Source: Hydrolagus affinis (lineage: Eukaryota). Taken from it: a DNA stretch of 64,000 nt. Of this stretch, positions 29,815 through 30,047 are shown piece by piece. Numbering within the stretch: position 1 is the stretch's first letter; each line of letters begins with the position of its first letter. Below the pieces are notes generated by a model. The model saw nothing but the letters and a program-made list of their open reading frames with translations. It ran no database searches and was not told the origin of the DNA. The DNA is taken from assembly GCA_012026655.1 (NCBI GenBank), contig JAAILG010000611.1, positions 1-64,000 on the forward strand. Reading direction: 5' to 3'. Position numbers and translations under genes: made by a program.

Positions 29815-30047
29815 CATTTTCGTTTCGCCCGCAAAATATAGTCAATTCATTTTACAGTATATTCTGTGAAGCACTTTGAAACTTTCAAAGACATGATAGG
29901 GCATTATATCAAATGCAAGGATTATTATTATTACGATTTTTGTGTAGAATAAATGCACATAGGTTTCCCAGCATACTGCAGGAGCCGGTGTATTCTGATT
30001 AAACCTATTTTACAGGTACGAGAAAGTGACCCAGTGATCCCAATAAG
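29815..30047 (+). pseudogene. inverted duplicate of SINE tail, SRPK2 intron end and first ~32 nt of the VRESD exon
   Basis: aligns to the reverse complement of about 53426-53650. Confidence 0.85.

What the first reader, a model, noticed from the sequence alone, without database searches (positions are those of the whole stretch)
29815..30047. Inverted copy of an SRPK2 splice acceptor and exon start, with its upstream SINE tail, inside the gene's own last intron
Seen: + strand GCATACTGCAGGAGCCGGTGTATTCTGATTAAACCT-ATTTTACAG|GTACGAGAAAGTGAC-CCAGTGATCCCAATAAG is the reverse complement of about 53426-53510, the intron end plus start of the VRESD exon, with a few substitutions and small deletions. 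Both copies are directly preceded by a SINE 3' tail. Inference: either SINE-mediated 3' transduction of flanking host DNA or a local inverted duplication. In the SRPK2 pre-mRNA the copy is antisense to that exon's acceptor region, so it could pair across 23 kb. That could mask the acceptor of the exon carrying the U12 donor or bracket the intervening exons for back-splicing. On the + strand it is also an intact acceptor that KMT2E read-through transcripts could use.
Basis: partly seen in the sequence, partly recalled or inferred. Interest (0 to 1): 0.7.

Follow-up and report, generated by a model that had tools for sequence, protein, structure and literature searches.

The report
Backwards splice-site copy, likely repair scar
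The last intron of a chimaera-like fish's SRPK2 gene holds a real, decayed, backwards copy of one of the gene's own exon starts, likely left when a broken DNA end used a shared repeat tail to copy the wrong place, and probably without any role in splicing.

Summary
Window 29829-30047 (+) matches 53648-53426 (-) at 80.5%; the unique part has only two places in the genome, and an independent run holds it in one ungapped contig. It lies in SRPK2's last intron; the donor is the 88-nt exon with a U12-type donor. The two SINE tails show no sign of co-duplication: 20 of 91 columns differ, one common CpG state is shared, rank 156 of 509. Transduction is unlikely: a promoterless stub as source, a local single copy, no tail at the 3' end. 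Two-copy local pairs are common here (36 in 1.81 Mb). A second pair has the same build: unrelated SINE bodies, near-identical flank from the tail on. Best reading: a repair-type (SDSA-like) templated insertion primed by SINE-tail homology, now a neutral relic. It works like the repair-mediated duplications of Pace et al. 2009 but lies beyond their 5-kb cut-off. A SINE 3.65 kb away is probably kin to the copy's SINE. No evidence of function: the frame is broken, 38 other inverted pairs compete, and nine poly(A) hexamers precede the plus-strand acceptor. RNA was not examined. The scan noted similar antisense exon copies in two other genomes.

The parts
29821..29933 (+). 5'-truncated SINE 3' tail in front of the copy (consensus positions 42-157); likely the resident primer
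   Evidence: the family's full-length copy at 32507 has a tRNA head
29934..30015 (+). Copy of the donor intron end, with AG acceptor at 30014-30015; 6 nt shorter pyrimidine tract; a 4-nt insertion makes an AATAAA at 29948
30016..30047 (+). Copy of the first 33 nt of the VRESD exon, 1 substitution and 1 deleted C; frame breaks after VRESDP
53543..53648 (-). Donor-side SINE tail (inner arm), consensus positions 50-154; likely landing site of the invading end
53651..53782 (+). Second SINE tail (outer arm), head-to-head with the inner arm; the two form a long hairpin
53459..53542 (-). Donor intron end and true acceptor of the VRESD exon
53371..53458 (-). SRPK2 exon (88 nt, VRESD...), followed by U12-type donor GTATCCTT at 53370
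33479..33585 (+). SINE tail 3.65 kb away, probably kin to the copy's SINE (second short duplication or second template)
27659..33083 (-). Last coding intron of SRPK2 (approximate ends), host of the copy

Best explanation
The segment is a decayed, two-copy inverted duplication of about 115 bases of SRPK2 intron end and exon start, likely made by double-strand-break repair that was primed by SINE-tail homology, and likely without function. Inferred steps: a break fell in or just after the ATT tail of a SINE already resident at 29821-29933; its resected 3' end paired with the same-family tail at 53543-53648, 23.5 kb away and inverted; synthesis ran about 115 nt into the unique flank, across the acceptor and 33 nt into the exon; the strand let go and was end-joined back. 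The SINE at 33479 was probably copied from this SINE in a second short duplication. Shown: homology, orientation, copy number, unrelated-looking SINE bodies, decay. Inferred: the break, the priming, the order of events, neutrality.
For: Two places only; contiguous in an independent run. Copy SINE vs donor SINE: 20 of 91 columns differ, one shared non-consensus state (117A, 20% of copies), rank 63 of 216 by distance and 141 of 216 by shared rarity, 156 of 509 in the larger set. The copy's SINE reaches 8 consensus positions further 5' than the donor's. Substitution rate falls from 0.15 in the SINE body to 0.078 in the intron flank and 0.031 in the exon. Of 686 SINE tails in 1.81 Mb, 2 local pairs share a tail-anchored unique flank (this one; L088, 1.37 kb, direct, 2 places genome-wide); in both the bodies look unrelated (21 of 94 and 17 of 57 columns differ) and the flanks are 89-91% alike; 0 local pairs among 388 5' ends. 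Body vs flank contrast: one-sided p 0.007 for L088, 0.02 or 0.13 here, by alignment. Two-copy local pairs are common: 36 in 1.81 Mb. Pace et al. 2009 describe the class, including an exon copied inverted into an intron of its own gene without constraint.
Against: No empty site was seen, so junction microhomology, filler and target deletion are unknown. The body-flank contrast for this pair alone is not significant (two-sided p 0.23 or 0.05), and CpG decay in the SINE and purifying selection on the donor both inflate it. Non-CpG distances among all four local SINEs are alike (0.10-0.11), so a co-duplication just after insertion is not excluded. Two tail-anchored pairs among about 25 is also about the count that plain co-duplication would give (my estimate). 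23.4 kb is beyond the 5-kb range in which Pace et al. call duplications repair-mediated with confidence. The left end of the homology falls at the tip of the donor palindrome, which this model leaves as coincidence.
Confidence: 0.55

Rival explanations
1. One-piece co-duplication: SINE tail plus flank (about 225 nt) was copied from 53426-53650 in a single repair or template-switch event soon after that SINE inserted, perhaps from a cut at the hairpin tip; also a neutral relic.
For: Alignment is continuous through SINE, tail and flank; left end of homology lies at the palindrome centre 53648-53651; body vs flank divergence not significantly different for this pair.
Against: No private mutation shared, rank 156 of 509; the copy's SINE is longer at its 5' end than the donor's; the L088 pair shows the same pattern with a clearer contrast.
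Confidence: 0.25
2. Two-template chimaera in one event: the SINE part came from 33479 (3.65 kb, direct) and the flank from 53545-53426 (inverted), joined at the tail.
For: 33479 ties for nearest to the copy's SINE (4 of 509 at 0.132), shares a 2-nt deletion and the post-tail TTACGAT; 138 tails in the genome end so, 14 with two more matching bases, two of them these. Pace et al. found 20 chimeric cases, each with one donor within 5 kb. Divergence 11 of 88 vs 10 of 113 in the flank fits one age.
Against: 33479 lacks the 5' bases that the copy's SINE has, so it is more easily the copy than the source; upstream flanks are unrelated (rank 174 of 341); the motif was defined after seeing both; the 2-nt deletion has 1271 pattern matches genome-wide.
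Confidence: 0.1
3. Retrotransposon 3' transduction: an L2-type enzyme reverse-transcribed an RNA holding the SINE tail and its flank (for example SRPK2 pre-mRNA) and inserted it.
For: In the pre-mRNA the donor tail is in sense and directly precedes the copied flank; the family is a tRNA-headed SINE.
Against: Donor stub lacks the head; single copy within 23.5 kb in a 1.11-Gb genome; no poly(A) or ATT run at the 3' end; SINE bodies do not match; 0 of 12 other tails with the same ending carry the flank.
Confidence: 0.04
4. A kept regulatory element, whatever its origin: in SRPK2 pre-mRNA the copy pairs with and masks the acceptor of the U12-donor exon, or promotes circles, or serves KMT2E read-through as an acceptor.
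For: Predicted duplex -264 kcal/mol (unique part -155), third strongest of 39 inverted pairs in the gene, and one that covers a splice site; skipping the 88-nt exon would shift the frame; the copy's AG and tract remain (10 pyrimidines of 17, true acceptors 10-17).
Against: 23.4 kb apart, among the widest of the listed pairs; 22 of 39 pairs are below -100 kcal/mol and 3 other partners for the copy's SINE lie nearer; the donor SINE can fold with its own neighbour (-113). The copy is transcribed last. A circle would need the masked acceptor or the U12 intron's acceptor (inference). Nine AATAAA lie on + between the KMT2E stop and the AG; the frame breaks after 6 codons. Run X2 differs at 7 of 268 bases over the copy, against 4 of 425 and 14 of 511 in the flanks.
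Confidence: 0.05

Closest known systems
Repair-mediated duplications (Pace, Sen, Batzer, Feschotte 2009, PMC2671141; parts 1-5 of 8 read) and 'doublets' (Thomas et al., known here only as cited there)
   Same: [quoted passage not shown] The background pairs here cluster near 1 kb as theirs do.
   Different: Donor is 23.4 kb away, outside their 5-kb set; they rely on 2-9 nt microhomology, here about 100 nt of SINE homeology precedes the copy; their pipeline excluded cases that include repeat sequence; no empty site seen here.
Transposable-element-mediated rearrangements, Alu/Alu type (PMC9675761; passages read)
   Same: A junction falls in homologous positions of two same-family SINEs of different origin.
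   Different: Those are deletions, duplications and inversions with repeats at both breakpoints, about 1 kb or more; here only one end uses a SINE and the result is a 115-nt insertion.
Holocephalan CmiSINE / SacSINE1-CM with L2-2_CM tail (PMC5499810; passages read)
   Same: tRNA-headed SINE, very abundant, copies about 14% from consensus, in a Callorhinchus-like host.
Reverse-complementary intronic matches that drive back-splicing (search listing only; otherwise recalled)
   Same: Inverted pair within one pre-mRNA.
   Different: One arm overlaps the acceptor itself, the arms are 23 kb apart and 80% alike, and stronger, closer pairs exist in the gene.

Membership tests
Repair-mediated duplication (Pace 2009) | At least 50 nt, present at only one other place | tested here: met
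   2 places; about 115 unique nt
Repair-mediated duplication (Pace 2009) | Donor within 5 kb (their ad hoc cut-off for confident cases) | tested here: not met
   23.4 kb; so it works like one but is not filed in their proximal set
Repair-mediated duplication (Pace 2009) | No poly(A/T) tract of 5 or more at the end | tested here: met
   right junction sequence
Repair-mediated duplication (Pace 2009) | Microhomology, filler or deletion at the junctions against an empty site | tested here: inconclusive
   no empty site read out; flanks are unique, so no repeat consensus gives it
Repair-mediated duplication (Pace 2009) | Neutral divergence after copying | tested here: inconclusive
   frameshift and 3 indels; 7 of 268 differences in X2, in the range of the flanks; one comparison only
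SINE/LINE 3' transduction | Source element with its promoter | tested here: not met
   donor arm starts at tail-consensus position 50, no tRNA head
SINE/LINE 3' transduction | Copy's element matches the source element | tested here: not met
   rank 156 of 509, one common shared state
SINE/LINE 3' transduction | Poly(A) or terminal repeat at the 3' end; dispersed insertion | tested here: not met
SINE/LINE 3' transduction | Target-site duplication | tested here: inconclusive
   none evident by eye; no empty site
Back-splicing or acceptor-masking inverted repeat | Stable predicted duplex | tested here: met
   -264 kcal/mol, but 22 of 39 pairs are below -100
Back-splicing or acceptor-masking inverted repeat | Circular or exon-skipped RNA that depends on the repeat | not tested
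   no RNA reads were examined
U12-type intron after the donor exon | GTATCCTT donor and branch-like motif close to the AG (consensus recalled) | tested here: met
   GTATCCTT at 53370; ACCTTGAC about 10 nt before the AG near 51343

The most novel reading that the evidence does not exclude
SINE tails act as recurring primers for one-sided capture of unique DNA in this genome (2 cases in 1.81 Mb, so perhaps hundreds to a thousand), and this capture gave the splicing kinase gene SRPK2 an antisense copy of the acceptor of its U12-donor exon that pairs over 23 kb while the slow minor intron is pending and tunes frame-shifting exon skipping. The priming part alone has about 0.5; the probability given is for the regulatory role.
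Probability: 0.05. Interest if true: 0.7.

Novelty: new member of a known kind. Interest (0 to 1): 0.24.

Why it matters
As a relic it matters little: short repair-type duplications are known across vertebrates and are frequent in this genome. The modest point of value is mechanistic: two cases where identity starts at a SINE tail while the SINE bodies look unrelated suggest that abundant SINE tails can prime capture of unique DNA, including splice sites, over tens of kilobases, a class that the standard screen for such duplications excluded. It is testable by a genome-wide count. If the copy did modulate SRPK2 splicing, it would be a self-made antisense switch on a splicing regulator.

Tried and rejected
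Misassembly: rejected (run X2). Kinship of the copy's SINE with the outer arm: looked likely in 64 copies but fell to rank 36 of 509. A transduction subfamily ending in TTACGAT: 0 of 30 sampled deletion-variant copies end so and 0 of 12 other such tails carry the flank. Homology of upstream flanks of 29821 and 33479: rejected (rank 174 of 341). Insertion into an older repeat: flanks have no real match in 1.81 Mb or, for the left flank, in the genome. Enrichment of head-to-head SINE pairs: 5 among 825 hits, about my chance estimate of 7. Related species (4 of 21 listed runs laid): organism B covers both flanks and the SINE start but has no cover at 29961-30062; a hole proves nothing. Organism D has one contig over the insert with the donor's extra C; donor or orthologue cannot be told. 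Organism C had no useful cover. Repeat contigs swamped the joints table (1249 rows not shown). No RNA holder listed; no RNA reads were examined, so expression and splicing stay open. SINE consensus in the supplement of PMC5499810 was not readable, so the family name is untested.

Full report
Observation. Self-comparison finds 29829-30047 (+) against 53648-53426 (-) at 80.5% over 231 columns. The unique part 29952-30047 has 90 matches, 6 substitutions and 2 indels. A genome search with 29935-30050 returns 2 places, copy and donor. SRPK2 proteins of cartilaginous fishes map 13 exon matches on the minus strand, most at 90-100% to Callorhinchus, so the host is holocephalan-like. The donor exon is 53458-53371 (88 nt) and is followed by GTATCCTT; a branch-like ACCTTGAC lies before the next AG (U12 consensus recalled). 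The copy lies in the last coding intron, after a mutually exclusive-looking exon pair (33953-33861, 33177-33085). Run X2, from another study, holds 29912-30179 in one contig with 7 substitutions and no gap. The feature is real.

Anatomy. The copy reads: SINE tail 29821-29933, intron end 29934-30015, exon start 30016-30047, then unique DNA with no poly(A). At the donor, the SINE tail (53648-53543) is the inner arm of a head-to-head pair whose outer arm is 53651-53782; the pair folds into a long hairpin. The family is a tRNA-headed SINE, probably the L2-tailed holocephalan families of PMC5499810 (passages read; name untested).

Are the SINEs co-duplicated? Against 216 other copies the donor arm ranks 63rd by distance (20 of 91 columns) and 141st by shared rare states, sharing only a CpG decay found in 20% of copies; in 509 copies it ranks 156th. 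The copy's SINE extends 8 consensus positions further 5'. Substitution rates are 0.15 in the SINE body, 0.078 in the intron flank and 0.031 in the exon. Against this: the contrast is not significant for this pair (two-sided p 0.23 or 0.05 by flank choice), non-CpG distances among the four local SINEs are all 0.10-0.11, and donor constraint lowers the flank rate. A duplication soon after insertion stays possible.

Background. In 1.81 Mb of the genome (window plus 175 fetched stretches on 12 contigs, not a random sample), 220 candidate matches were cut to 49 with at least 50 nt found only twice; 8 self-overlapping palindromes were dropped and 41 merged into 36 pairs: 1 under 100 bp, 20 at 0.1-5 kb (16 at 80% or more, 7 inverted), 9 at 5-50 kb (4 at 80% or more including this one, 8 inverted), 6 beyond. 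Some are probably low-copy repeats or paralogues; only L088 was checked genome-wide. This matches the repair-mediated duplications of Pace et al. 2009 (PMC2671141, parts 1-5 of 8 read): mean 162 bp, peak near 1.2 kb, found also in zebrafish, sometimes copying splice sites, once an exon inverted into its own gene without constraint. They class only donors within 5 kb with confidence.

A second case of the same build. Among 686 SINE tails, 10 flank pairs passed the filter; 2 are strong, local and anchored at the tail: this one and L088 (1.37 kb, direct). The other 8 are ATT-run, weak or cross-contig matches. In L088 the bodies differ at 17 of 57 columns and share one CpG state, while the flank is 89% alike over 66 nt; among 388 5' ends there is no local pair. 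One-sided Fisher p is 0.007 for L088 and 0.02 or 0.13 here. Two cases are few, and their number alone is about what co-duplication would give, but in both identity starts at the tail. This favours one-sided strand invasion between same-family tails, synthesis into unique flank, and end-joining. SINE-SINE junctions are known from human rearrangements (PMC9675761, passages); short duplications from ectopic donors are reviewed in PMC7407515 (passages).

A third SINE. The tail at 33479-33585, 3.65 kb away and in the same orientation, ties as nearest neighbour of the copy's SINE (4 of 509 at 0.132) and shares a 2-nt deletion and the ending TTACGAT. Genome-wide 138 tails end so and 14 with two further bases, among 74,435 forward-strand tail matches; chance of one within 3.7 kb is about 1e-3 to 1e-4, with the motif chosen after the fact. 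The deletion is common (1271 matches), nearest neighbours are not local in excess (3 of 510, 6 expected), and upstream flanks are unrelated. Kinship is probable (about 0.75, my estimate); since 33479 is shorter at its 5' end it is more easily a later copy than a source.

Function. The duplex is predicted at -264 kcal/mol, third of 39 inverted pairs in the gene, but among the widest; 22 pairs are below -100, and the donor SINE has a neighbour 3 nt away to pair with. The copy is transcribed 23 kb after the acceptor. Back-splicing would need the masked acceptor or the U12 intron's acceptor (inference). On the plus strand nine AATAAA precede the AG, one inside the copy, and the frame breaks after VRESDP. 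Divergence in X2 over the copy (7 of 268) lies between that of the flanks (4 of 425, 14 of 511). No RNA was examined, so a role is unlikely, not excluded.

Verdict. Real; works like a repair-mediated duplication, outside the 5-kb set; likely SINE-tail primed (0.55), co-duplication 0.25, two-template 0.10, transduction 0.04, functional 0.05. Two earlier scan notes on other genomes reached the same class; they are unchecked and not counted as support. Interest 0.24.

Noticed in passing
window 45633-45993 and 50426-50793: The strongest inverted pair in the SRPK2 pre-mRNA (73% over 369 columns, -494 kcal/mol, 4.4 kb apart) brackets the single exon 48683-48519: a better candidate for back-splicing than the finding.
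   Followed up: no
window 53543-53782: Head-to-head SINE tails form a long hairpin about 85 nt before the VRESD acceptor; a second such pair lies at 19085-19252. Five pairs among 825 hits, about chance.
   Followed up: partly
L088 575-785 and 1944-2083 (G000:C1 near 300.7 and 302.0 kb): Second pair with unrelated SINE bodies and shared post-tail flank, 2 places genome-wide.
   Followed up: yes
window 33479-33585: SINE between the two alternative exons that is probably kin to the copy's SINE.
   Followed up: yes
window 33953-33861 and 33177-33085 (-): Tandem paralogous exons of SRPK2, 93 nt each by protein match, mutually exclusive-looking; one Heterodontus model includes both.
   Followed up: no
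window 29948-29953: A 4-nt insertion in the copy creates AATAAA on the plus strand, about 65 nt before the copied AG.
   Followed up: no
L190 and L191 (G000:C46 near 55.0 and 66.6 kb): Two SINE copies identical over the 155 nt printed, inverted, 11.6 kb apart: a young inverted duplication or an assembly duplicate.
   Followed up: no
L065 2093-2387; L169 4626-4951; L036 7066-7131 and 9049-9114: Non-repeat palindromes of about 300 nt (93%, 84%) and a 66-nt exact pair 2 kb apart.
   Followed up: no
window 16845-16944 and 50157-50256: Two 100-N scaffold gaps; the second lies between copy and donor, so their 23.4-kb distance and relative orientation rest on the scaffold, though SRPK2 exon order is kept across it.
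   Followed up: partly
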